Counted from the stretch's first letter, positions 1 through 21,143 are shown. The stretch: 32,000 bases of DNA from Metamycoplasma auris (GCF_003253435.1 NZ_QKUB01000001.1:62555-94554); one strand, 5' to 3'. Notes: generated by a model not told the origin, from the letters alone. Numbers and translations are program-made.

Positions 1-444
1 TCTCCCAAGAAGGAATCATGATTATCAAAATCAATTATAGATATTATTGAAACGGTTATTTTAGATCAGAATGCTGGGGAAAACATCAAACAAGTTGATA
101 TGCAAACAATTGAACATATAATGCCCCAAGATTTAAGTGAATGAAAAAACGACTTAGGTTATGAAGAGGAAAAATTGAAACAATTGCACTCAAAGTGTAA
201 GGATCAAATCGGTAATTTAATTCATTTAAATAATAAACAAAATACCAAAATATCTAACAAGTCATTTAAGCATAAAGTAAATGAAGTGTATAAAAAATCA
301 TCTTCAATACTAGTAACAGCTAAAGGTCTTGAAAAGTATGGATTAAAAAATATTTGTGAATATGATCAATGAACATTTGACATCATTGAGGAAAGAACTG
401 AAAAATTAGGAAAAGTCATTATTGATATAATGAATAGTGACTAA
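1..444 (+). CDS. DUF1524 / GmrSD-family His-Me finger nuclease domain protein, C-terminal part (5' end lies outside the window)
   Basis: Frame 1 is open from nt 1 to TAA at 442-444 when three in-frame TGA codons are read as Trp. The translation contains QTIEHIMPQ followed by IGNLIHLNNKQNTKISNKSF, the H-x2-P ... GNL ... N-x-N pattern I associate with DUF1524 domains of type IV restriction (GmrSD-like) proteins. Confidence 0.6.
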
Positions 445-473
445 AAATAACTTATTTTGTTGAAATAAAAATA

Positions 474-503
474 GACTACGAATATGAAGGGTAGTCATTT
501 TTT
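474..503 (+). terminator. weak rho-independent terminator candidate after the DUF1524 gene
   Basis: GACTAC (474-479) pairs with GTAGTC (491-496) across an 11-nt loop, followed by ATTTTTT. Confidence 0.35.
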
Positions 504-566
504 ATTCCTTTTTTTAGACTTTTTTTGTCATTTTAGCATTATTTTTTAGTGTTTTTTTGCTATTTT
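498..566 (+). promoter_or_regulatory. helically phased T-tract array (predicted intrinsically bent DNA) abutting lipoprotein promoter 1
   Basis: T runs lie at 498-503, 509-515, 520-526, 531-534, 542-547, 552-558 and 563-566. Their start-to-start spacing is 11, 11, 11, 11, 10, 11 nt. The array ends at the -35 hexamer. Confidence 0.5.
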
Positions 567-592
567 GGCAAAAAAAAAAAAAAAAGTAAAAT
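565..592 (+). promoter_or_regulatory. sigma-70-type promoter with poly(A) spacer (A16), lipoprotein 1
   Basis: TTGGCA (565-570), an A run at 570-585 (16 A) plus G586, then TAAAAT (587-592). The spacer is 16 nt. The same architecture recurs at 1616-1644 and 6555-6583. Confidence 0.65.
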
Positions 593-715
593 TTGGACAT
601 AGCAATGCATAGTCCCTAAAAAACCAAACAAAAAATGTGGAGTCTAGACAATAAAAAATTGCTATATAAATTCAAATTAAGATATTTAAATATTTAAATT
701 AAATTAGGAAGTTAT

Positions 716-1558
716 ATGAAAAAACTAAACAAATTTTTATTTGCTTTAGGTTCCGTTGCTTCATTAGCATCACTACCATTAATTGCTGCAAAATGTGGTG
801 GTACTAAGGAAGAAAGCAAACCTGAAGCAAATAAGAATCCAAAAGATCCTAATCCTGGAAATAAGGATCCAAACACTAAAAATAAAATTAATTTAAGTTC
901 CTTAGAAAGTTCAGTTGTAGATAAGATAAAAAAATCAATCAAAAATAATAATGTAGAACAAGCAGAAATTTTAGATATTTTAAAAGAAGTTAAAGGTCTA
1001 GAAACTTTAAGATTCGGTGATTTTAAAACTCTTGATTTTAAAGATTTCAAATTAACAATTGAAGCTAATACATCCTCTTCTTTAATTGAAGGAAAATTTG
1101 AATTTTCAGAAGAAATTAAAAAAGAAGAGAATGCAAAATTAAAGACAGAATTAAATATGTTTTTAAAAGAAAAACTTGTTGCTAATGTAAAAGTAAAGAG
1201 AGCAGATTTGATTGACTCCTTAGACTTTGATAACGTTAAGACAAAAGCAGACCTTTACGATGTCAAAGAAGAAATTAAAGATTTCATTAATGATTACTAT
1301 TCTGTTTTTAGAGAAAAACTTAATGTTTTATCTAGAAATGTAGATTTCAATTTTAAAGAAGTATCTGAAGATGAACTAAGATTATTTATTCCTGAAGAAT
1401 GATTACTAGAAATTGAAAAAGAAACAAAACAAGAAGATAAGCATAAGGTATTCGAACAACTACTATTGAACACACAAGTAATCAAAGAGGCTTTACAAGC
1501 TCAATATCAAGAACAAACTAAAGAAGTTGAAAAATTATTCAATACAACCTTAAAATAA
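716..1558 (+). CDS. surface lipoprotein, poly(A)-promoter family member 1 (280 aa)
   Basis: ATG at 716 follows an AGGAAG Shine-Dalgarno sequence. The signal peptide is MKKLNKFLFALGSVASLASLPLIAAKC with lipobox LIAAKC. The listed ORF 716-1402 ends in TGA (Trp) and the frame continues to TAA at 1556-1558. The mature part is charged and Lys/Glu/Asn-rich. Confidence 0.85.
755..792 (+). repeat. 38-nt block identical to 6708-6745 (signal-peptide coding cassette shared by lipoproteins 1 and 3)
   Basis: GTTGCTTCATTAGCATCACTACCATTAATTGCTGCAAA is present at both positions. Near-identity continues through TGTGGTGGTAC.AAGGAAGAAA. Confidence 0.9.
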
Positions 1559-1570
1559 TCTAAAACTAGA

Positions 1571-1597
1571 ATACCGCTATTAAAGCGGTATTTTTTT
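1571..1597 (+). terminator. rho-independent terminator of lipoprotein 1
   Basis: ATACCGCT (1571-1578) pairs with AGCGGTAT (1584-1591) across a 5-nt loop, followed by a T7 run. Confidence 0.8.
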
Positions 1598-1615
1598 AAT
1601 TAAATTTTTGCTATT

Positions 1616-1644
1616 TTGGCAAAAAAAAAAAAAAAAAGTAAAAT
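1616..1644 (+). promoter_or_regulatory. sigma-70-type promoter with poly(A) spacer (A17), lipoprotein 2
   Basis: TTGGCA (1616-1621), an A run at 1621-1637 (17 A) plus G1638, then TAAAAT (1639-1644). The spacer is 17 nt. The upstream context TTTTGCTATTTTGGC is identical to locus 1. Confidence 0.65.
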
Positions 1645-1735
1645 TTTTCGAGTATTGCAAAACTGGCCCAAAGCAATACAAATAATACCTAATTTAAATA
1701 TTTAATTATTACTTATAAGGATTACATATTATTTT

Positions 1736-2197
1736 ATGAAAAAACTAAACAAATTTTTAATTGCTTTAGGTTCAGTTTCTTCTCTAGCAGCATTACCTTT
1801 AATTGCAGCATCATGTGATAAAACTAAAGAAGAATCCAAAGAAAGTAAAGATAATAAAAACAATGAAGGAAACTCAAACACAACAACTCCTTCAACCTCT
1901 CCCTCTGATTCATCTATAGAACAACCACAATCTGACCAACCATCTACATCGCCTTCAACATCTCCTAAATCTCCAGTCACTCCTAAAGGCGAGAGAGAAA
2001 GCAAAAAATATATTAGTAAACCTGCACTAGAAACAGTAAATAAACCAGGTAGTTCAATTCAAATTATTAAATTTGAAATTGGTACACCAAGTGGGGATAT
2101 ATTTTCAGAAGAACCCGGAGATAGAACAAGTTCCGATCGTGAAGATAGAATTGAGGATTGATTATATAAGAATAAAAAAACTATTAAAAAGCAATAG
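1736..2197 (+). CDS. surface lipoprotein, poly(A)-promoter family member 2 (153 aa), Pro/Ser/Thr-rich
   Basis: The signal peptide is MKKLNKFLIALGSVSSLAALPLIAASC (lipobox). The listed ORF ends at TGA 2159-2161 and the frame continues to TAG at 2195-2197. The mature region contains TTTPSTSPSDSSIEQPQSDQPSTSPSTSPKSPVTPKG. Confidence 0.8.
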
Positions 2198-2235
2198 TTA
2201 AAACTAAAAACATTGATTTTCTTTTAAATTTAATT

Positions 2236-2278
2236 AAAACGTTATTTTGCATTACATCATAGCAAACTAACGTTTTTT
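2236..2278 (+). terminator. possible terminator after lipoprotein 2
   Basis: AAAACGTTA (2236-2244) pairs with TAACGTTTT (2268-2276), followed by T residues. The 23-nt loop is long, so the call is weak. Confidence 0.35.
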
Positions 2279-2522
2279 ATTTATCTAAATTTTCAATTGA
2301 TTCAATCGTTTATCAAATCATTAATGCAATATTTTAATCAAATAGTTGAATGCTACCAAAAAATTAAAATATGAATTTATTATTTAAAATTCTTTAAAAA
2401 ATTCAGTATTTTAAATCAATTAATTCAATCTTTGATTTATTTTAATTGAATTAGGAATACAATCTTTTTTAAGGAGAGAATCTTTTTTCTCCTTAAAAAA
2501 ATAAAAAAAGGAATATAAATTT

Positions 2523-4353
2523 ATGCTTGCAAGTAAAAATAAAAAATTTGGAATGCTTCTATCTTTAATGACTATAGCTACAATGCCAATCGTTACTCTT
2601 TCAGCTAGTTGTCAAACTAAAGCAAAAAATGATAATGCGCTTAATATGAATGTAACCAAAGCTTCATTTAAAAACTTCAACAAAGAATACACAATAAAAG
2701 ATGTAGATTTATCATTATATACAATTAAAGATGAAGAAGAAATGGTATATGTTGATTTAGATGAATTTTTAAAAAATTTAGAAGGACTATTTGATAATAA
2801 GTCATTTAGTTCTCGAATCGATGAAAAGAATAATAAGAAGTTCTATGAAATTAAAAATGATAAGAATGAAGTAGTAAATAGATTAGTTATTGACTGAGAA
2901 AACAATAAAATAACAACTCCAAGTACAAATTTCTTTTTTGAAATTCAAAAAGAACAACAACTAACAGATAATAGTCAATTCCTTGAAACAAACTATGAAA
3001 GCAAAAAGGATAACGAGAAATCTGAGGTAGTTTTTGATCTAGGTAAATATAAGATGGATATTTTATATAAGGATAAAAAAATCTTGTTACCTTTTAATGT
3101 ATTCAATACATTATTTATGAGTTATAGTTTTAATAACATTTATTGAAATGGCAAAAGTCTTACAAACCTAGAAGCAGGAATTGATGCACACGGTAATACT
3201 GAGAAGGAAATAAAAGCAAGAATTAAAAAAGACCAAGAAATAAAAAATAAACCTCAAACTAAAAAAGAGCGTGAAATTAACTTTAATCATCTAGCATTTG
3301 CAATGGATAATTTCTATGGTCTAAAATACCATAAAGAAATTAAGTCTTTTGAAGAATGAATCGGGCCTGATTATAAGCAAAAACTTCTTTCAATTGACCC
3401 TAAGGTATTCCATCAAGCATACATTGATATATTCCATAAAAAATTGAATGAATTACATACAAGAATTAATACATTATCATATTATGATGAATATGATGAA
3501 AAAGAAACAACAAGAGAAAAGTTAATCAAAGAAAAAGAAAAGAATTTTGGTAAATTCTTTAATGATTTCAATAAAAATAAGGCTGAGTTAGTTAAAAATT
3601 TTGAGGCTAAGTTTGGAAAGAAAATTGATGAATTTGGTCCAAATGACTATATTAGATACCATGGTAATACTGCGATTGTAACAACTCTTGGATTTGAAGA
3701 TGGAACTAAAGATGAAATAGCAAAAGAAAATGAAGCTTGAAAACACGACACTTATTTTCTAATGCGTCATTTAATGAAACAAATTGAAGAGAGAAATAAA
3801 AAAGCAAAGAATAAAGAAAAAGAAGGTAACAAAGAACTCAAAGAAATTAAAAATATTGTTCTAGATCTATCTTTAAATGGTGGTGGTAGTGTTAATTCAA
3901 TGGTTAGAGTTTTTAGGCTTTATGACTGATAAAGAAGTTTTGAATCGTGAATATAATATCCTTGATAAAAGAGCTGATCTAAGCAAATCTAAAGTCGATA
4001 CCAATGGTGATAAAAACTATGATAATGATGCATACACTAAGTATAATTGAAGTCTACTTGTTGGAATTAATACATTTAGTGCAGCTAATCAATTAACAAG
4101 TATTGTTAAAGAAATGGGTATTGCAAAAATCATTGGTAAACAAGCAGGAGGTGGTATGTCTGCAATTATGCCTCTTGTATTAAATGATGGAACAACAATT
4201 ACCATTAGTGGTCCAAATAATGCAGTCTTTGGTGAAAAAAATGAATCTATTGAAGGGGGAATTACACCTGATATTAATTTAGAATACAAAGACTTCTATA
4301 ATGATGATGCAATCGACAAGGCTCTAAATGAAGCTTCAAAACTAAGTAAATAA
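2523..4353 (+). pseudogene. S41-family (C-terminal processing / tail-specific type) peptidase lipoprotein, paralog 1, with a +1 frameshift at a T5 run
   Basis: The signal peptide is MLASKNKKFGMLLSLMTIATMPIVTLSASC. The frame starting at 2523 runs through TGA-Trp codons to TAA at 3930-3932, and the homologous C-terminal part continues in the +1 frame (open from 3877) to TAA at 4351-4353. The total is 1831 nt, which is 610 codons plus 1 nt. It is collinear with paralog 2 throughout and carries the motifs DLSLNGGGS, NTFSAAN and IIGKQAGGG. Confidence 0.8.
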
Positions 4354-4372
4354 GAGTCAATTTTTAAACTTT

Positions 4373-4404
4373 AATCTCCTTGTCTATTTATGCAAGGAGA
4401 TTTT
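4373..4404 (+). terminator. rho-independent terminator after S41 paralog 1
   Basis: AATCTCCTTG (4373-4382) pairs with CAAGGAGATT (4393-4402) as a 10-bp stem with a 10-nt loop, followed by TT. Confidence 0.7.
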
Positions 4405-4631
4405 AATTATTAAAAATTTAACAAAATTTAGTATTTTTCGATGAAAAAATTCTTATATTTTTATAAAAATATAAGAGTTTATATATCAATCTATTCAATT
4501 AGTTTTTTGTTGGAATTTTTAATAAAAAGAATGTAAAAATAAGTTGAAATGAATGATTATTCAATATACATTGAGTGTAATTCAATATAATTTATCTAAG
4601 GGCTTATGCCCAAAAACATAAAAGGATTTAT

Positions 4632-6437
4632 ATGGAAAAAACATCGAATAAAACAAGGTTAGTTAAGTTTATATTACCAATACTAAGTGGAAGTATTTTG
4701 CCAATAGCAATGCTATCAGCAAAATGCCAAACAAAAGAATATTTAGATGATCTTACAATTACAAAACATTCATTTAAAAACTACAATCCAGAGTTTAATG
4801 TAAAAGAAAAAGCAGATTTAAAAGCTTATTGAAAAAATGAAGAAATGTATGTTGATGTTGATGAATTTTTAAGTACACTTGAAGGTTTTATTGATAACTC
4901 AAAATTTACAACAAAAATTGACCTAAATAAAAAAGAAAAATCGTATATATTAAAAGGTTCAACACTTGGAAATGAGGGAGAATCTGAAACACAACCTGAT
5001 GCTTTAGTTATCAATTGGGAAAAAAATACAATCTCAGTTCCTAACACTTGATTCTTTTATTCAATTATAAAACCACAACAATTAACTGATGGTAATCAAT
5101 TTCTTAAGAGTGAATATGAACAAAAGATTGATGCTACAGGAGATGTTGTATTTGATTTAGGCAAATATAATATGGATATCTTGTTTAAAGAAAATAAGGT
5201 TCTAGTACCATTTTCAGTCTTTAATACTTTGTTTGTAACACAAAATTACAATAATATTTATTTCAATGGCAAGACTTTTACAAATCTAGAAGCAGGAATT
5301 GATTCTTATTCTTCTTTTGGAACTCCTAAAGAAGCCAAATTAAGAATTCAAAAGGATGCTACAATTGCTAAGAAAAAACCTACAAAAAGACAAAGAGAAA
5401 TTAATTTTCATCATTTATCTTTTGTAATGGATTATTTCTATGGTCTTAAGAGATATAAAAAATTTGATTCTTTTGAAAAATATATTGGTGAAGATTATAA
5501 GAAAAAATTTCTATCAACGAATCCAGAAGAATTTCATCAAGCATATATTGATGTATTTCACAAGAAACTAAATGAATTACATACAAGAATTGATTCATTA
5601 TCTTACTACAATGGATATACTGAAGAATCACTAAGAAATTCTAAGTTAGCTAAGGATTCAAAGAAATATTATGGCGATTACTATAATGAATTCTTTAAGA
5701 CTCAAGGTGAGTTACAAGATAACTTTAAAAAAACATTTAAAAAAGATCTAGACAAATTAGAATTAGATGACCATATTAGATTTGTTGGTGATGACACAGC
5801 AATATTAAGCACATTTGGGTTTGCAGATGCAACTAAAGATCAAATTGCCGACAAAAATAACACTTGAAGATATGACACTTATTTCTTAATGAAGAATTTG
5901 ATGGAAAAAATAAAAGCAAAGAAAGAAATAAAAAATATAATCCTTGACTTATCCTTAAACGGTGGTGGTAGTGTGCAAGCTATGATAAGAACTCTTGGAT
6001 TTTTGACTAATAATAAAGTCGTAAATCGTGAATATGATGTTCTTAACAAAATCGGTTCAAAAACACTATCACAAGTTGATGTTTTTGGGGATAATAAATT
6101 TACAAAACATAATTATGATAAATATAAATGAACTGCCTTAGTTGGAATTAATACATTTAGCGCAGCTAACCAAGCTACAAGTATTATAAAAGAAATGGGC
6201 ATTGCTAAGATAATTGGCCAAAAAAGTGGTGGTGGTATGTCAGCTGTTATCCCTGCTACTTTATTAGATGGAACAACAATTACAATGAGTTCTCCAAATA
6301 ATGCCACATATGGTGAAAAATACGATGACATTGAAGGCGGAATTGAACCTTATGTTAAATTAGATTATAAAGATTTTTATGATAATGAAAAAGTTAAGCA
6401 AGCAGCATTAGAAGCTCATAAAATCAAACAAAAATAA
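4632..6437 (+). CDS. S41-family peptidase lipoprotein, paralog 2 (601 aa, intact)
   Basis: Five listed ORF fragments (4632, 4845, 5172, 5889, 6195) share one frame and are joined by TGA-Trp codons. The signal peptide ends LSAKC. Motifs present are DLSLNGGGS, NTFSAANQ (putative nucleophile Ser) and IIGQKSGGG (putative catalytic Lys region). Confidence 0.85.
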
Positions 6438-6459
6438 TGAATAAATAATAAGAAAAATG

Positions 6460-6492
6460 GAATTTAGGAAAAAAACTAAATTCTATTTTTTT
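6460..6492 (+). terminator. rho-independent terminator after S41 paralog 2
   Basis: GAATTTAG (6460-6467) pairs with CTAAATTC (6476-6483) across an 8-nt loop, followed by TATTTTTTT. Confidence 0.75.
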
Positions 6493-6554
6493 GTCTAGAA
6501 GATCTACAAAAATTACTTATTTTCATTGATTTTATGCTCCAAAATTAATTACTT

Positions 6555-6583
6555 TGCGCAAAAAAAAAAAAAAAAAGTAAAAT
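6555..6583 (+). promoter_or_regulatory. sigma-70-type promoter with poly(A) spacer (A17), lipoprotein 3
   Basis: TGCGCA (6555-6560; alternatively TTGCGC at 6554-6559), an A run at 6560-6576 (17 A) plus G6577, then TAAAAT (6578-6583). Confidence 0.6.
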
Positions 6584-6668
6584 GGGGGATGTAACAAAAT
6601 AGGAATTGTTACGTTTAATGTATAACAAAAATTTAAATATTTAAATAGATTAAGGAGACTTAATAATT

Positions 6669-7214
6669 ATGAAAAAACTTAATAAGTTTATATTAGCTTT
6701 AGGAAGCGTTGCTTCATTAGCATCACTACCATTAATTGCTGCAAATTGTGGTGGTACCAAGGAAGAAAATAAAACTCCAACTGAAAAAGACCCAGGTACA
6801 GGTAAAAAAGAAGATGATAAAGATGGAGGCAAAAAAGATAATGAAAGTGAAGTAAAGGATGACAAAACCAAATTCACTGAAGCTTCTGATAAAGCAATCA
6901 AAACCTTAAAGGAATTAGCTGAAAAAGTTAATAAATATGAATACGAAAAAGAAAAAGCTAAAAAAGTAGAAGGTTTTGGAGATCTAACAGATGAACAATA
7001 TAAGGGTGTTAAAAAACAAATAACAGATCGTATTGATCATCTAGTTAAACAAATTGAAAGTTGAAAGACTAGCGGTCCTAAAAACATTGAAGAAGTTAAC
7101 TTAGCAAAAGGCAATCATAAAACATATGATGAAGCATATGATGCTATGATAAAAAGTCAATTAGATGGCGCTATAAAACAACTTGAATCAATTTCAAAAG
7201 ATTTAACAAAATAA
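6669..7214 (+). CDS. surface lipoprotein, poly(A)-promoter family member 3 (181 aa)
   Basis: An AAGGAG Shine-Dalgarno sequence precedes the start. The signal peptide is MKKLNKFILALGSVASLASLPLIAANC. The listed ORF ends at TGA 7062-7064 and the frame continues to TAA at 7212-7214. The mature part is Lys/Asp/Glu-rich. Confidence 0.85.
6708..6745 (+). repeat. 38-nt block identical to 755-792
   Basis: See the feature at 755-792. Confidence 0.9.
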
Positions 7215-7223
7215 TTACAACAA

Positions 7224-7255
7224 AAAAAGTTGGGCGATAATGCTCAACTTTTTAT
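7224..7255. terminator. bidirectional terminator between convergent lipoprotein 3 and rlmH
   Basis: AGTTGGGC (7228-7235) pairs with GCTCAACT (7242-7249) with one G:U pair, flanked by an A run upstream and a T run downstream. Confidence 0.6.
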
Positions 7256-7683
7256 TTGTGGTATTTAATATTCTTTTTAATTGCTAACCCACGATAAATT
7301 TGCTCAATTAACATTAGACGAAACATTTGATGTGGGAATGTCATTTTTGAAAAGCAAATTTTATTTTGAAATTTACTTTCATCAACGCCATTCGAACCAC
7401 CAATAATAAAAGTAATATTATCCTCAACAAACAAATCTGAGAATTCTTCACTACTCATTTGCTTACCTTGCAATGATAAATAAAAGACTTTCGAATTTTT
7501 TGGAATCTTAGATAAAATTGCCTCAGTTTCTTTTGCAATTTTAAGCTCGATATTATCATTTAGATTTTCTTTTATTTCAATAAGATTTATTGAAGCTAAA
7601 AAATTGATTTTCTTAAGATATGAATCATAAATTTTTTTATGATCCTGACTTAGAGTTCCAATTGCAATTAAATTTATTTTCAT
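7252..7683 (-). CDS. rlmH: 23S rRNA (pseudouridine1915-N3)-methyltransferase RlmH (SPOUT family)
   Basis: 143 aa. The C-terminal FSKMTFPHQMFRLMLIEQIYRG...YHK is typical of the RlmH/YbeA family. Confidence 0.85.
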   Translation of the reverse strand: MKINLIAIGTLSQDHKKIYDSYLKKINFLASINLIEIKENLNDNIELKIAKETEAILSKIPKNSKVFYLSLQGKQMSSEEFSDLFVEDNITFIIGGSNGVDESKFQNKICFSKMTFPHQMFRLMLIEQIYRGLAIKKNIKYHK

Positions 7684-7692
7684 TTATTTTGA

Positions 7693-9528
7693 TTAAGACT
7701 TATTGATTTTATTGTTTAGATGGTAGATAAGCATTTGGATATCAGCAGGGTTAATACCACTAATTCTTGTTGCTTGACCTAGAGTAGTTGGTCTAATTAG
7801 ATCAAGTTTTTGGCGTGCTTCAGTTGCGATATTTTGGATTGACCAATAGTCAAGATCTTTTGGAAGCTTAAGATTTTCTAATCTAAGCATTTTTTCTGCA
7901 GCACTTTCTTGTTTTTTTAGATAACCAAATAAACGCACTTGGGTAGTTATTTCATTAATGTAAGGATAGTCATCTCCGAGGATATCTTTTGGATCGACTG
8001 CAGGATTAGATAGAAGTTTTAGATATGATTGACCATTAATGACATTGTATTTAATTCCTAAATCACTTTTAGATGAGACATAAATATTTTTTAGTTCTTC
8101 AATTTTAGTTTGAATATTTTGATACTTATCTAGTATTTTTTTGTATTCATCCTGAGAAATCATCTTATTATCAAATGCATATTTTCCAAGTCTTTCATCA
8201 ACATTATCATTTCTTAAAAGAAGGCGATATTCAGCTCTACTTGTTAGCATCCGATATGGTTCAGAAGTACCTTTTGTTACAATGTCATCAATTAAAACAC
8301 CAATATATCCATCATTACGTTTAATTTCCATCACTGGTAATCCTTGGATTTTGTTTGCGGCATTAATTCCAGCAATAAGACCTTGAGCGGCTGCTTCTTC
8401 ATAGCCACTAGTTCCATTAGGTTGCCCAGCGGAAAAGAAATTTTCAATTAATTTTGTTTCAAGAGATTTATATAAAACTAAAGGATTGATTGCATCATAT
8501 TCAATAGCATAACCATACTTCTGAACTCTTGCGTTTTCAAGTCCAGGAATTGTTTTGATGATTTCGTCTTGTACATCAGCAGGCATTGAGGTTGAAAGGC
8601 CATTGATATACATAATGTCACCTTTTGTTGTTTCAGGTTCAAAGAATACATGATGCGTTTCTTTATCTTGAAATCTTACAATTTTGTCCTCAATACTTGG
8701 ACAATACCTAGGTCCAACTCCAACAATTACTCCTGAATAAAGTGAACTTTTATCAAAATTTCTTAGAATAATTTCTTTAGTTTCCTTCGTTGTATGGGTT
8801 AAGAAACAAGAAGTTTGTTCATCAAGTTTAATATTAGTTTTAGATGAAAAGCATAATTCTGTCTTGTCAAGAATTTCTTTTTCTACTTTTGAAAAATCAA
8901 TGCTATCTGTATAAATACGACATGGAGTACCTGTTTTTAATCTTTGAAGTTCAAATCCATATTTTGCTAAATTACTTGAAAGTGTGGAACTATTTTTTTC
9001 GCCATCTGGTCCATCATTTTTAATATCCATTCCTCTTAGGATTCTTGAATTCATATATACACCAGTTGTCATAATGACAGCAGATGCATATATATTCCCA
9101 TTTGCTACTGTTTTGATCCCAATACATTTTTTATTTTCTACAATCAAATCAGATGCTTCATCTTCAATTAGAGTAATGTTATTTTCTTTTCTAACTGCTT
9201 CAAGAATAATTTGCGAATATTTTTCTTTATCAATTTGTGCTCTTAATGATCAAACAGCTGGACCTTTTGATGAATTTAACATCTTAATTTGAATCATTGA
9301 CCTATCAGCAAAAATACCCTGAACACCACCTAGGGCATCAATTTCACGGGTAATAATTCCTTTTGCTGATCCTCCGATTGAAGGATTACAAGGAAGCATT
9401 GCAAGTTTATTGATATTTAGTGTTACTAAAGCAACTTTTAGATTTCTTTTTGCTAAAGCAAAAACTGCCTCAATTCCGGCATGGCCGCCACCAATTACAA
9501 TGGCATCGAATTTATTTATATTATTCAT
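7693..9528 (-). CDS. mnmG: tRNA uridine 5-carboxymethylaminomethyl modification enzyme MnmG (GidA)
   Basis: ORFs 7693-9147 and 9250-9528 share one frame and are joined through TGA at 9250-9252, giving 611 aa. The N-terminal FAD motif is [14 protein letters not shown] and GidA-like sequence continues throughout. Confidence 0.95.
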
Positions 9529-13655: not shown

Positions 13656-14851
13656 TTATTTTGCACTTATTCATCTTGCTTTCTTAATTTTGATTTTGGT
13701 TCAAGTTTTTTGCTTGATTTTTATACCAATGTAATGTACAAATACAACAACTGGTATACCCCAAACATATGAAAATGCAATATCACTAACCCAATGACCG
13801 CGGTTAACAATTAAAGCAAAAGTCATAGACCAAAAATAAATCTGGTAAATAATAATTCAAATTACTTTCTTTCAATTTAATTTTTTATTGTTTGAAAGAA
13901 AGAAGAAAAATATAAGTCCAATGTTAAGAGTAGCAATTACATGTCCTGAAGGAAATGCTCATCGAAATCACTTATTAAAAAAATTCATTCTTGGATCAGG
14001 ATGAAAGGCTTTACCATTAATGACATACCAAGGAAGTTTGATGTATGAAGGGATATTTCAACGAAATACACCATCACCATAATTAAAACCATGTCTAAAG
14101 ACATTTTGATTTAAATAATAACTAACTCATTCAGGATGCTCTTGTTTTACACTTTCAAGTAAATCTCCATAAATAACATTGTAGTAGTATGGCCTTGATG
14201 TCATCCCTTTAAGCAAAAGGATAATAAAATAAGAAATTAAGTTAAATAAAATAAATTTAATTGATTCAACTCAATATTTGTTTGTTAAAAAATCCTTTGA
14301 TTTAGAAAATTTAAGATGTAAAAACAAACCTCCGAAAATAAAGAAAACTGAATTTAGAAGAATACTTAAAATTAATGCTACTTTACGATATATAAACTTT
14401 GTAGCATATACCGCATCTCCCCCCCAGTTCCAAAACCGTTGCCGGTTCTTATTTCATTATGTGCACTTAATGAAATCATCAAAATATAGATTATTGGATA
14501 TATAAAATAAACTAAAGGTAATATTCATTTAGTTTTAGATCAAAAATTTCTTTGGTTATTCTTAGTCTTGTATGAATAAAGACTTTCAATGATAACCATA
14601 ACAACAAAAAACAAAAAGACACCTAATAGCGTGTTACCTGAAATCTCAAAAAAAGCTGATCAATATCTTATAAATTCAGATTTTAAAAATCCTTGTTCAA
14701 AGAATTTAGCAAGTTTCAAATCAACTGAATAAGGAGATGAAATAATAAAGCTAATTAGTTAAATAAAAAATAATAGAAGTAAGCCAAAAAATACTAAATT
14801 AAAGATTGTGTCTTTTTCTTTTTTAATTTTATAACTTACTTTGTTATCCAT
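13656..14851 (-). pseudogene. PAP2-superfamily (type 2 phosphatidic acid / lipid phosphatase) membrane protein, disrupted by an in-frame TAA and a frameshift at a G7 run
   Basis: The minus-strand translation shows the three PAP2 motifs: KGMTSRP, PSGH (AFPSGHVIA) and NRGHWVSD (SRxxxxxHxxxD type). The ATG at 14849-14851 opens a frame that meets TAA at 14759-14761 after 30 codons. The same frame reopens, then must shift at C7 (14419-14425, G7 on the coding strand) to reach the motif-bearing frame ending at TAA 13656-13658. Confidence 0.75.
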
Positions 14852-19180: not shown

Positions 19181-19215
19181 TAAATGTAACTTATAATACA
19201 CATTTATGATAAAAT
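19181..19215 (+). promoter_or_regulatory. candidate operator plus promoter of the HTH-methyltransferase gene
   Basis: The inverted repeat TAAATGT (19181-19187) / ACATTTA (19200-19206) brackets TATAAT (19192-19197). An extended -10 TGATAAAAT (19207-19215) ends 8 nt before the ATG at 19224. No Shine-Dalgarno sequence is visible. Confidence 0.35.
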
Positions 19216-19223
19216 GAATAATC

Positions 19224-20273
19224 ATGAAATCAGAATTATTAAGATCATTTGGAACTAAAATCAAAACATTACGTGAAAAAAGAGGATTATCTCAAAATGA
19301 GCTTTCGCAGTTATGCAATTTTAAAAGAGAATATATTTCAAAAATTGAAAACGGAAGTTCTAACGTTACAATTGAAACTATACAAAAATTAGCTAATTCC
19401 TTAAATATAAAAATGAGTCAATTACTTGAAGATAATAATGACCTAAAGTCAAAACCTTTTGTAAAATGAGCTGGTGGTAAGAATCAAATTCTTAATAAAT
19501 TAATTGAATTTATACCAAAAGAATTTAATCGATACTATGAGCCATTTATTGGTGGAGGAGCACTCCTTTTTAATCTTAAGCCTAATACAATAATAATCAA
19601 TGATAGTAATAAGGAATTAATGTATGCATATCAATGTTTTTTAGATAAATACAAACTTAATAAGTTAATTAAAGAATTAGAGATGCATGAGTTAAATCAT
19701 TCTGAAGAATATTATTATCAAGTAAGAAATTTAGATCAGAGCAATTCTTTTGAGAAATTAAAAGACTATCAAAGGGCAGCAAGGTTAATATATTTAAATA
19801 AGGCTTGTTTTAATGGACTTTATAGAGTTAATAGTAAAGGTTTTTATAACACTCCATATGGAAATAAGCAAAAAATTAATGCTTTTGATAAAGAAAATTT
19901 TTTAGATATTTATAAGTATTTTTCTATTTCTAATGTAGCTATTAAAAATGAAGACTTTGAAGAATGTGTTAAAGATGCAAAAAAAGGTGATTTTGTTTAT
20001 TTTGATCCTCCTTATGACAGTTACACTGACAAGAATTCATTTACAAATTATGATTCTAAAAAATTTGGTAAGGATGAACAAATTAGATTAAGAAATGTTG
20101 CTCTTAAGTTATCAAAAAGAGGTGTAAAAGTGATGCTTTCAAACCACAACACTCCCTTTATAAATGAATTGTATAAGGATTTTAATAAACACGTTATTGA
20201 GGCAAGAAGAATAATTAACTCTGATGCTAAAAGAAGAGGAAATGTTGAAGAATTAATAATTACTAACTTCTAG
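19224..20273 (+). CDS. XRE-family HTH domain fused to a Dam-type (D12 class, alpha group) N6-adenine DNA methyltransferase
   Basis: ORFs 19224-19469 and 19620-20273 share one frame and are joined by TGA at 19467-19469, giving 349 aa. Residues 1-~70 form an HTH (LSQNELSQLCNFKREYISKIENG). These are followed by PFVKWAGGK, EPFIGGGA (FxGxG) and FDPPY motifs. Confidence 0.85.
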
Positions 20274-20285
20274 TAAAATTAAATT

Positions 20286-21143
20286 ATGAATAAAAATATT
20301 GACGAATTACTCAATACAATGAAAAAAGGAATTGAAGATTGAGATTACTATGTTAATTTTTCAAAAGTAGAATGAAATTTTATTTCAAAAAGAGAAAAAC
20401 TGGATAAATTAAATTCAATAATTGAGTCAACAAATATAGAAAGCGATTTTACAAATCTAATAAAGAACGACCATTCCATTTTATAAATAGTACCTATTTT
20501 ATTAGGAACAAGAGATACAAAAATATTAATAAATGATGAAGGCAGAATTATTGAGTTTGATTTTAAAAATATTAACCATACTTTTGAGGAGTATGCAAAT
20601 TTTTTAGAAGAAATTGGATTATTCAAATTTCTTCAGAAAATGAAAATGTCTTCCCTTATCGACTATGTTTTAGGAATTGAGGTTGGACTTGATAGTAATT
20701 CAAGAAAAAATCGTAATGGCAAAAAGATGGAGCAATTGGTTGAAAAATATTTAGTCGATTCTAATTTCAAAAAAGAAGTTGATTTTTTTACCCAAATGAC
20801 CACTAAAAAGCTTATAGATATTTTTAAAATTGATATTTTAAATGAGTTACCAATTAAAAAATTTGACTTTGTTATAAAGTATAAAAAACAAATATATGCA
20901 GTTGAATGTAATTATTATAAGAGTGGTGGTTCGAAAGTTTCTGAAATAGTAAGGTCTTATAAAAATCTATTAGATGATTTAAGAAAGATCAATAACTTCC
21001 ATTTTCTATGAATTACGGACGGATTTGGTTGAATTAAAGAAAAAAACCATCTAAAAGATGCCTTATTATCAATAGATAATATTTTTAATCTTGATGATTT
21101 AGAGAAGAAGGGAATACTTAATATATTAGAATCAATAAAGTAG
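20286..21143 (+). pseudogene. DpnII/MboI-family type II restriction endonuclease with an in-frame TAA at codon 67
   Basis: The 286-codon frame starts 12 nt after the methyltransferase stop. Family-typical blocks are present: VPILLGTR, GIEVGLDSNSRKNRNGK, VECNYYKSGGSK and FLWITDGFGW. TAA at 20484-20486 interrupts HSIL*IVPILLG. All other breaks are TGA-Trp codons. Confidence 0.75.

What the first reader, a model, noticed from the sequence alone, without database searches (positions are those of the whole stretch)
716..7214. Accessory locus: three poly(A)-switched lipoproteins interleaved with two S41 protease lipoproteins
The gene order is Lp1, Lp2, S41-1, S41-2, Lp3, all on the same strand and each with its own terminator. 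The three small lipoproteins share promoter, UTR element and signal peptide, but their mature regions are unrelated (charged, PST-rich, and charged coiled-like). The two roughly 600-aa proteins are secreted lipoprotein serine peptidases. A variable-antigen family physically wrapped around a duplicated surface protease pair is not an arrangement I can assign to a described system. One hypothesis is a functional module: the protease might process or shed the variable lipoproteins, or the pair might act together on host proteins, loosely analogous to paired binder/protease systems in mycoplasmas. This is inference only.
Basis: inference. Interest (0 to 1): 0.7.

Follow-up and report, generated by a model that had tools for sequence, protein, structure and literature searches.

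The report
Phase-variable lipoprotein genes beside S41 peptidases
In the goat-ear bacterium Metamycoplasma auris, three on/off-switchable surface lipoprotein genes lie around an older pair of surface protease genes (one broken here); the two gene sets occur apart elsewhere, so this is an ordinary neighbourhood and not a new system.

Summary
The sequence features are real. The window is Metamycoplasma auris and uses genetic code 4. Three lipoprotein genes (716-1558, 1736-2197, 6669-7214) share a cassette. It has a -35-like hexamer, a poly(A) tract of 16, 17 and 17 A, G+TAAAAT, a palindromic 5'UTR element and a signal peptide. The mature regions are unrelated. They flank two S41 peptidase lipoprotein genes. 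S41-1 carries a +1 frameshift (T5 at 3910-3914) that removes the catalytic Ser region; only S41-2 (601 aa) is intact.

None of 29 other S41 loci, from about 24 mycoplasma genomes plus two further M. auris loci, has such a promoter or signal peptide within 10 kb. The S41 pair is orthologous to a pair in M. alkalescens that has no such neighbours. M. auris 15026 also has a 6-kb cluster of these lipoprotein genes with no S41 gene.

The lipoproteins are a Vlp-like family, which NCBI already names "variable surface lipoprotein". Changes in poly(A) length in the promoter spacer probably switch them on and off. Tract length differs between strains (A17 against A14), and a 0.9-kb difference fuses Lp1 and Lp2 in strain 15026. 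Verdict: a new member of a known kind, of modest interest.

The parts
565..592 (+). Lp1 promoter: -35 TTGGCA (565-570), poly(A)16 (570-585), G, -10 TAAAAT (587-592); spacer 16 nt
684..699 (+). Palindromic 5'UTR element ATTTAAATATTTAAAT of Lp1
   Evidence: 5 strand-hits at 3 sites, against 0.06 expected
716..1558 (+). Lp1, 280-aa variable surface lipoprotein. It has the family signal peptide and lipobox (IAAKC). Residues about 56-131 form a spiralin-like domain, followed by a charged helical C-terminal half. One internal TGA = Trp.
1568..1594 (+). Lp1 terminator hairpin plus T run
   Evidence: dG -13.4, z -4.9
1616..1644 (+). Lp2 promoter: -35 TTGGCA, poly(A)17 (1621-1637), G, -10 TAAAAT; spacer 17 nt
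1692..1705 (+). 5'UTR element ATTTAAATATTTAA of Lp2
1736..2197 (+). Lp2, 153-aa variable surface lipoprotein. The mature part is 36% P+S+T. Its C-terminal 50 aa are shared with the 209-aa fusion gene of strain 15026.
2237..2275 (+). Lp2 terminator-like hairpin followed by T6
   Evidence: z -3.3
2523..4353 (+). S41-1 lipoprotein peptidase gene, disrupted. The extra T in the T5 run at 3910-3914 gives a 469-aa product (2523-3932) that lacks the TFSAAN Ser motif. Removing one T gives a 609-aa ORF that is 78.8% identical to the intact gene of strain 15026.
4373..4402 (+). S41-1 terminator hairpin
4632..6437 (+). S41-2, intact 601-aa S41 lipoprotein peptidase (lipobox LSAKC). His317 (NELHTR) and Ser510 (TFSAAN) are invariant in the family alignment. 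The predicted fold matches S41 proteases.
6451..6492 (+). S41-2 terminator hairpin plus T7
   Evidence: dG -16.9, z -6.5
6554..6583 (+). Lp3 promoter: degenerate -35 TTGCGC, poly(A)17 (6560-6576), G, -10 TAAAAT; spacer 18 nt. The ortholog in strain 15026 has TTGGCA and A14.
6631..6646 (+). Palindromic 5'UTR element of Lp3
6669..7214 (+). Lp3, 181-aa variable surface lipoprotein, 44% charged, 69% identical to the 173-aa ortholog in strain 15026
7224..7253 (.). Hairpin shared by Lp3 (+) and the convergent rlmH (-)

Best explanation
The locus is a strain-variable surface-protein neighbourhood of Metamycoplasma auris. It is made of two independent components.

(1) Three stand-alone transcription units of a Vlp-like 'variable surface lipoprotein' multigene family.
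- Each unit has a sigma-70-type promoter in which a poly(A) tract forms essentially the whole spacer between the -35 and -10 hexamers.
- Slipped-strand mispairing during replication changes the tract length and so the spacer length. This turns each gene on or off independently and gives combinatorial surface coats (inferred by analogy).
- Read from spacer lengths alone, Lp2 (17 nt) and probably Lp1 (16 nt) are in an expressible state. Lp3 (18 nt, degenerate -35) is weak or off (inferred).
- The common promoter, UTR and signal-peptide cassette is attached to unrelated mature domains. Deletion or recombination between members makes chimeras.

(2) An ancestral tandem pair of S41 lipoprotein peptidases with a Ser/His active-site signature and an S41 fold.
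- They are probably surface or secreted general proteases, like the S41 exoprotease of M. mycoides subsp. capri (inferred).
- S41-1 is inactivated by a frameshift in this strain.

The lipoprotein genes were added around the S41 pair in the M. auris lineage. The adjacency is not a functional requirement of either component.
For: Shown by the sequences and searches:
- Organism and genetic code.
- Cassette anatomy in three window copies and five copies from strain 15026, always TTG(G/A)CA-A(n)-GTA(A/C)AAT. Tracts are A16, A17, A17 in the window and A14, A15, A10, A13, A16, A14 in strain 15026.
- The orthologous Lp3 promoter differs in tract length between strains, A17 against A14.
- NF033817 scores above its cut-off for all three proteins, and NCBI names them 'variable surface lipoprotein'.
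- The 209-aa gene of strain 15026 is Lp1 N-part plus Lp2 C-part. Window 1139-2034 has no counterpart there.
- Pfam S41, invariant His317 and Ser510, profile hits to S41, CPAF and tricorn chains, and an AlphaFold model (pLDDT 85) that matches the B. fragilis S41 protease 8vcb at E 2e-11.

Independence of the two components:
- 0 of 29 other S41 loci have the promoter or the signal peptide within 10 kb.
- A neighbour-joining tree pairs auris S41-1 with alkalescens_1 and auris S41-2 with alkalescens_2. The M. alkalescens pair lies between msrAB and tdk with no family lipoprotein.
- An unnamed closer relative also has the pair next to tdk.
- L082 is a cluster of six lipoprotein genes without S41.

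From the literature:
- Insertions or deletions in the -35/-10 spacer switch vlp, maa2 and vmm on and off (PMC2268961; PMC10502178).
- S41 peptidases are the main extracellular caseinolytic enzymes of M. mycoides subsp. capri and M. capricolum (PMC9051441, PMC3534093).
Against: - No expression or switching data exist for M. auris.
- The tract-length differences are between assemblies. Strain 15026 was partly sequenced with 454, which is error-prone in homopolymers (PMC3707572).
- A homopolymer next to a -10 box is not proof of a switch. The T tract of the vpma promoter plays no role in variation (PMC2268961).
- The adjacency is kept in both M. auris strains available, so a lineage-specific functional link cannot be excluded.
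- A lipoprotein with repeats of the Lp1-type domain lies 3.7 kb upstream of a distant S41 paralogue in M. agalactiae and M. bovis.
- S41 activity and catalytic residues are inferred from alignment and a model only.
Confidence: 0.78

Rival explanations
1. Functional module. The S41 peptidases process, shed or are shielded by the flanking phase-variable lipoproteins, or transcription from the switchable Lp2 promoter reads through into S41-1. On this reading the interleaving is selected.
For: - All genes lie on one strand, and the arrangement is kept in two M. auris strains that are about 92-99% identical in housekeeping proteins.
- The scan found no promoter-like site scoring 9 of 12 or better on the + strand in the 325-nt gap before S41-1.
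- A protein with repeats of the Lp1-type domain lies upstream of an S41 gene in M. agalactiae and M. bovis.
- Loss of S41 changes the proteome of M. mycoides subsp. capri (PMC3534093).
Against: - The adjacency is absent from all 29 other S41 loci, including the orthologous pair in M. alkalescens and the two other M. auris S41 loci.
- The family clusters elsewhere without S41.
- Each gene has its own terminator hairpin.
- S41-1 is broken in this strain although its lipoprotein neighbours are intact.
- The spiralin-like domain is also found in a DUF285 lipoprotein that is far from any S41 gene.
Confidence: 0.08
2. The poly(A) tracts are fixed promoter or UP-like elements, or are partly assembly artefacts, and not switches. 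On this reading the three lipoproteins are constitutively expressed paralogues.
For: - Mycoplasma intergenic DNA is A/T-rich.
- The vpma T tract is not a switch (PMC2268961).
- One family member (L083) has the UTR and signal peptide but no tract.
- Homopolymer lengths in draft assemblies are unreliable.
Against: - Tracts of 16-17 A are expected about 0.03 times in 32 kb, yet they occur only at these three promoters, and exactly between the two hexamers.
- Nine cassettes have tracts of 10 to 17 A, so most give non-functional spacers. That is the pattern of a contingency family.
- The same architecture is a proven switch in vlp and maa2 (PMC2268961).
Confidence: 0.1
3. The whole block from Lp1 to Lp3 is a horizontally acquired island, for example from a Mycoplasmopsis species that shares the ear canal.
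For: - The signal peptide resembles M. agalactiae Vpma-type N-termini (P0047).
- The Lp1 domain is 39% identical to an M. agalactiae lipoprotein.
- The block lies between a GmrSD restriction gene and rlmH.
- Gene transfer among ear-canal mycoplasmas is discussed in PMC3707572.
Against: - The S41 pair groups with Metamycoplasma orthologues and not with M. agalactiae, which is about 30% identical.
- GC content of 0.23-0.28 is only slightly below the 0.29-0.32 of the adjacent housekeeping genes.
- No integrase or repeat borders were seen.
Confidence: 0.04

Closest known systems
Vlp system of Mycoplasma (Mesomycoplasma) hyorhinis
   Same: It is a multigene family of lipoproteins. Each gene has its own promoter containing a poly(A) tract, and a conserved 5' region and signal peptide are joined to divergent mature regions. 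Tract-length changes give independent on/off switching (PMC10502178, PMC2268961).
   Different: - It belongs to a different genus.
- NCBIfam VlpA and VlpC N-terminal models score only 18-32 bits against cut-offs of 160-175.
- The coding regions here have no internal tandem repeats, so the Vlp 'region III' size-variation module is absent.
- The genes are dispersed over at least three loci, and here they are interleaved with unrelated genes.
maa2 of Metamycoplasma arthritidis and the vpb locus of M. bovoculi (homopolymer in the promoter spacer)
   Same: Both have a homopolymeric tract in the -35/-10 spacer or in the putative promoter of surface protein genes. M. arthritidis belongs to the same genus as M. 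auris (PMC2268961, PMC3931370).
   Different: Their tracts are poly(T), the proteins are different, and maa2 is a single gene. No sequence comparison was run here.
Vsp (M. bovis) and Vpma (M. agalactiae) variable surface lipoproteins
   Same: The signal peptide and first mature residues are homologous (MKK..LGSVAS..P..AAKCGGTKEE). NF033817 is met, and P0047 is a hit to the signal-peptide profile.
   Different: Vpma and Vsp switch by Xer1 site-specific inversion around a single promoter (PMC2268961). Here every gene has its own promoter, and none of the genes immediately flanking the lipoprotein genes is a recombinase.
S41 exoprotease MMCAP2_0241 / MCAP_0240 of the M. mycoides cluster
   Same: These are membrane-anchored S41-family peptidases of mycoplasmas. 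They are responsible for extracellular caseinolysis, and their loss alters the proteome (PMC9051441, PMC3534093).
   Different: They belong to a different phylogenetic group, and their sequence relationship to the M. auris proteins was not tested here. They are reported to have N- and C-terminal transmembrane segments, not a lipobox. No activity data exist for the M. auris proteins.
MIB-MIP immunoglobulin binder/protease pairs
   Same: They are paired surface proteins encoded side by side, one of which is a serine protease.
   Different: MIP is not an S41 enzyme. The MIP_near_MIB model gives only a signal-peptide-level score of 16-24 bits against a cut-off of 305. No MIB homologue is present, and the lipoproteins are small and unrelated to one another.

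Membership tests
Mycoplasma variable surface lipoprotein N-terminal family (NCBIfam NF033817) | 29-residue prolipoprotein signal and lipobox profile scoring above the curated cut-off (22 bits) | tested here: met
   Lp1 46.6, Lp2 49.3 and Lp3 41.0 bits. NCBI names Lp1 and Lp3 'variable surface lipoprotein'.
Vlp-type promoter-tract phase-variable lipoprotein family | Homopolymeric A tract inside the promoter, between the -35 and -10 hexamers, at every gene | tested here: met
   TTGGCA/TTGCGC-A16/A17/A17-GTAAAAT at 565-592, 1616-1644 and 6554-6583. The same architecture occurs at five further genes of strain 15026.
Vlp-type promoter-tract phase-variable lipoprotein family | Tract length varies at high frequency and determines on/off transcription | tested here: inconclusive
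   Only between-strain data are available: Lp3 has A17 against A14, and the family ranges from A10 to A17. There are no clonal or expression data, and homopolymer sequencing error is possible.
Vlp-type promoter-tract phase-variable lipoprotein family | Conserved 5' region and signal peptide joined to divergent mature regions | tested here: met
Vlp proteins of M. hyorhinis (sequence family) | VlpA/VlpC N-terminal models above cut-off, and in-frame tandem repeats (region III) that give size variation | tested here: not met
   18-32 bits against cut-offs of 160-175. Tandem Repeats Finder finds no repeats inside the Lp coding regions.
Vsp/Vpma site-specific inversion systems | A single promoter plus an adjacent Xer1-type recombinase and recombination sites | tested here: not met
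   Each gene has its own promoter. The genes immediately flanking the lipoprotein genes are GmrSD, S41, rlmH and mnmG. Recombination sites were not searched for.
Peptidase family S41 (Pfam PF03572) | Domain score above the gathering threshold, and an S41 fold | tested here: met
   65.9 bits (frameshift-corrected S41-1) and 58.7 bits (S41-2) against a threshold of 24. The model has pLDDT 85 and pTM 0.84, and its best Foldseek hits are S41 proteases 8vcb, 4l8k and 6vbb.
Peptidase family S41 (Pfam PF03572) | Catalytic Ser nucleophile conserved (with Lys or His as partner) | tested here: inconclusive
   Ser510 (TFSAAN) and His317 (NELHTR) are invariant in 17 homologues. The Ser aligns with the S41/IRBP Ser position. 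The Lys after the Ser is not invariant. Active-site geometry and activity were not tested. In S41-1 the frameshift removes the Ser region.
C-terminal processing peptidases (Prc/CtpA, TIGR00225) | Full-length model above cut-off, including the PDZ domain | tested here: not met
   25 bits against a cut-off of 218.6, covering the catalytic domain only. There is no PDZ hit in Pfam.
MIB-MIP system | A MIP protease (NF045842) next to a MIB binder | tested here: not met
   The only hits are signal-peptide-level scores of 16-24 bits against a cut-off of 305, on Lp2 and Lp3. The proteases here are S41 enzymes.
Hypothetical conserved 'Lp / S41 module' | Adjacency of family lipoproteins and S41 genes conserved across species | tested here: not met
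   0 of 29 other S41 loci, within 10 kb either side, in about 24 genomes. The orthologous pairs in M. alkalescens and in L084 lack these lipoproteins. The lipoprotein cluster L082 lacks S41.

The most novel reading that the evidence does not exclude
In the M. auris lineage specifically, the interleaving may have become functional in one of two ways. Transcription from the switchable Lp2 promoter could read through a modest terminator into S41-1, which has no strong promoter-like site of its own, so that protease output becomes phase-variable. Alternatively, the three flanking lipoproteins could be dedicated substrates or shields of the adjacent S41 enzymes.
Probability: 0.07. Interest if true: 0.6.

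Novelty: new member of a known kind. Interest (0 to 1): 0.27.

Why it matters
It shows that M. auris, a little-studied commensal of the goat and ibex ear canal, has a contingency family of surface lipoproteins. The family combines a Vlp-type promoter tract with a Vsp/Vpma-type signal peptide, and strains differ in tract length and in gene fusions. This is useful for annotation and for comparative work on antigenic variation in the hominis group. It also clarifies that tandem S41 lipoprotein peptidase pairs are an old, widespread unit in Metamycoplasma and Mycoplasmopsis. It does not reveal a new type of system: the lipoprotein/protease interleaving is a lineage-specific juxtaposition.

Tried and rejected
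- A search with a 45-residue signal-peptide profile returned only 7 candidates and 2 short hits. It could not enumerate the family, so a full-length Lp1 query was used instead.
- Look-ups of the window's own genome failed. P0001 and P0018 are not on record. The DNA upstream of the window therefore could not be read.
- Rfam found nothing in 1-8000 at E <= 0.1, so the conserved UTR element is not a known RNA family.
- Ganter et al. 2019 (PMC6856322) is not held, so its result on surface-exposed proteins is cited only through reviews.
- Poly(A) or poly(T) tracts of at least 11 nt near S41 genes in three other loci were checked and rejected as equivalents. L029 is a tRNA terminator. In L032 (M. 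mucosicanis) the tracts belong to a different lipoprotein cassette 9 kb away, behind unrelated genes. L031 and L058 have A12 tracts without the promoter context.
- The M. agalactiae / M. bovis lipoprotein with repeats of the Lp1-type domain upstream of an S41 gene was considered as support for a module. It was rejected because it is not found at the equivalent loci of other Mycoplasmopsis species and because the domain also occurs away from S41.

Full report
**Organism and genetic code**

The window has about 26% G+C. Its long genes are broken at TGA under table 11 and are restored under table 4. S41-2 is 100% identical to an NCBI protein of Metamycoplasma auris on a 170,748-bp contig.

**Observation**

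- Lp1, 716-1558, 280 aa
- Lp2, 1736-2197, 153 aa
- S41-1, 2523-4353
- S41-2, 4632-6437, 601 aa
- Lp3, 6669-7214, 181 aa

These are followed by rlmH, mnmG, rbfA, infB and nusA on the - strand.

Upstream of each Lp gene lies a promoter-like cassette:

| Gene | -35 hexamer | Poly(A) tract | Spacer |
|---|---|---|---|
| Lp1 | TTGGCA | A16, 570-585 | 16 nt |
| Lp2 | TTGGCA | A17, 1621-1637 | 17 nt |
| Lp3 | TTGCGC | A17, 6560-6576 | 18 nt |

- Each tract is followed by G and TAAAAT.
- The motif A14-GTAAAAT occurs three times in 32 kb against 0.09 expected.
- A palindromic element, ATTTAAATATTTAA(AT), occurs in the three 5'UTRs and nowhere else in the window.
- The first 109 nt of the coding regions are 81-88% identical.
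- The proteins align with each other only over residues 1-35 or 1-51.
- Lp1 and Lp3 are 37% and 44% charged, and Lp2 is 36% Pro+Ser+Thr.
- All five genes are followed by hairpins with T runs.

One point is wrong. S41-1 is not an intact protein of about 600 aa.
- One extra T in the T5 run at 3910-3914 shifts the frame. Strain 15026 reads AGAG-TCTTAGG where the window reads AGAGTTTTTAGG.
- The result is a 469-aa product, which is what NCBI annotates (P0018).
- Removing one T restores a 609-aa ORF that is 78.8% identical to the intact gene of strain 15026.
- The invariant Ser motif (TFSAAN) lies downstream of the shift, so the truncated protein should be inactive.
- Two other genes in the window are also disrupted relative to strain 15026 or to their family profile, a PAP2 gene and a DpnII gene. 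The lesion is therefore plausibly real, but a sequencing error cannot be excluded.

**What the lipoproteins are**

- All three N-termini pass NCBIfam NF033817, 'variable surface lipoprotein', at 41-49 bits against a cut-off of 22. NCBI already gives that name to Lp1 and Lp3.
- The family is larger than this locus. M. auris 15026 contig 6 (L082, 6 kb) carries six same-strand lipoprotein genes. Four sit behind TTTGGC-A(n)-GTAAAAT promoters with n = 10, 13, 16 and 14, and there is no S41 gene.
- Contig 16 (L081) carries two more members, one behind TTGACA-A15-GTACAAT.
- The promoter, UTR and signal-peptide cassette is 70-89% identical across all of these.
- Between the two strains, the orthologous Lp3 promoter has A17 against A14.
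- About 0.9 kb of the window (1139-2034) has no counterpart in strain 15026, where a single 209-aa gene joins the Lp1 N-terminal domain to the Lp2 C-terminus.
- Lp1 residues 56-131 form a spiralin-like domain. It is also found, repeated, in a lipoprotein of about 550 aa in M. agalactiae and M. bovis, and at the N-terminus of a DUF285 lipoprotein in L082.
- No tandem repeats occur inside the coding regions.

**Mechanism (inferred)**

In M. hyorhinis vlp, M. arthritidis maa2 and M. mycoides vmm, insertions and deletions in the -35/-10 spacer turn transcription on or off (PMC2268961; PMC10502178). Here the A tract forms essentially the whole spacer. Across the nine cassettes seen in the two strains, spacers range from 10 to 18 nt. 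This is what is expected of a contingency family in which only a few members are on at one time.

Two cautions apply. A homopolymer next to a -10 box is not always a switch, as the vpma T tract shows (PMC2268961). Tract lengths in draft assemblies, including the partly 454-based assembly of strain 15026 (PMC3707572), are uncertain.

**What the S41 genes are**

- Both match Pfam Peptidase_S41.
- In an alignment of 17 homologues, His317 (NELHTR) and Ser510 (TFSAAN) are invariant.
- A profile search of the PDB finds IRBP, a Bacteroides S41 protease, CPAF and tricorn.
- An AlphaFold model of S41-2 (pLDDT 85, pTM 0.84) matches S41 proteases best: 8vcb at E 2e-11 and TM 0.66, then 4l8k and 6vbb.
- They are not canonical Prc/CtpA enzymes: TIGR00225 scores 25 bits against a cut-off of 218.6, and there is no PDZ hit.
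- In the M. mycoides cluster, S41 peptidases are the main extracellular caseinolytic enzymes, and their loss alters the proteome (PMC9051441, PMC3534093).

**Test of the module hypothesis**

- A scan of one genome per species with an S41 profile returned 78 loci.
- I examined 29 mycoplasma S41 loci, with 10 kb on either side. Nine contain tandem S41 pairs. None contains the TTGnnA(>=11)GTAnAAT promoter or a family signal peptide. The only locus that does is the orthologous one in M. auris 15026.
- The two other S41 loci of M. auris itself (L006, L051) also lack both features.
- A neighbour-joining tree pairs auris S41-1 with alkalescens_1 and auris S41-2 with alkalescens_2. The tandem pair therefore predates the split of these species.
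- In M. alkalescens the pair lies between msrAB and tdk, with no poly(A) tract of 10 nt or more in 21 kb.
- An unnamed closer relative, 59% identical, also has the pair followed by a tRNA-like sequence and tdk.
- The S41 pair and the lipoprotein family therefore each occur without the other.
- Surface proteins diverge faster between the two strains than housekeeping proteins. Identities are S41 79-82% and Lp 47-69%, against 91.5-99% for rlmH, mnmG, rbfA, infB and nusA. This fits immune or niche pressure on all of them, not a specific partnership.
- No MIB-MIP component is present.

**Verdict**

The interpretation as a new lipoprotein/protease module is not supported. The locus joins a Vlp-like phase-variable lipoprotein family, apparently undescribed for M. 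auris in the literature held here, to an ancestral S41 peptidase pair. It is a new member of a known kind and of modest interest.

Noticed in passing
window 1-444 (+): This is the C-terminal 147 aa of a GmrSD-type restriction endonuclease (PF07510, E 1.6e-22), cut by the window edge. It is the left neighbour of the lipoprotein/S41 block.
   Followed up: partly
window 19206-21143 (+): An HTH plus D12-class N6-adenine methyltransferase (355 aa) is followed by a DpnII-family endonuclease that covers only profile positions 122-274 of 278, with a small ORF (20286-20486) in front. It is probably a restriction-modification system with a disrupted restriction gene.
   Followed up: partly
window 13656-14599 (-): A PAP2-family membrane protein gene is broken by an in-frame stop and a 1-nt indel. 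Strain 15026 has an intact 406-aa gene (L001 12197-13417). With S41-1 and the DpnII gene, this is one of three disrupted genes seen in this strain.
   Followed up: partly
window 2465-2500 (+): A strong 16-bp hairpin (dG -17.9, z -4.1) ends 22 nt upstream of the S41-1 start codon and has no T run after it. Its function is unknown. It could be a 5'UTR structure or a relic.
   Followed up: no
L082 834-2342 (M. auris 15026 contig 6): A 445-aa DUF285 lipoprotein with a different signal peptide also sits behind a TTTGGC-A10-GTAAAAT promoter. The promoter cassette is therefore not tied to the family signal peptide. The contig ends in a T19 run.
   Followed up: partly
L083 180-929 (Logan SRR4235353): A 186-aa lipoprotein has the family UTR and signal peptide but no poly(A) tract upstream, so not every member is tract-controlled.
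   Followed up: partly
L032 20830-21440 (M. mucosicanis): Two copies of a cassette with a 17-nt homopolymer (T17 on the coding strand) lie just upstream of tandem lipoprotein genes. This may be a separate phase-variable family, 9 kb from that species' S41 gene.
   Followed up: partly
L033 4615-12061, L037 4624-12058 (M. agalactiae, M. bovis): Four same-strand lipoprotein genes with very short gaps lie in a row: a spiralin-like repeat protein of about 550 aa, a repeat-rich protein of 767 aa (repeats resemble leucine-rich repeats; read by eye, not tested), a 461-aa protein, and an S41 peptidase of 694 aa. They look like an operon. The first protein shares the Lp1 N-terminal domain.
   Followed up: partly
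window 510-570 (+): An imperfect direct repeat with a 32-nt period (1.9 copies, T-rich with GCC/GAC cores) lies just upstream of the Lp1 -35 hexamer. Similar reiterated T-rich/GGCAA motifs precede the L081 promoter.
   Followed up: no
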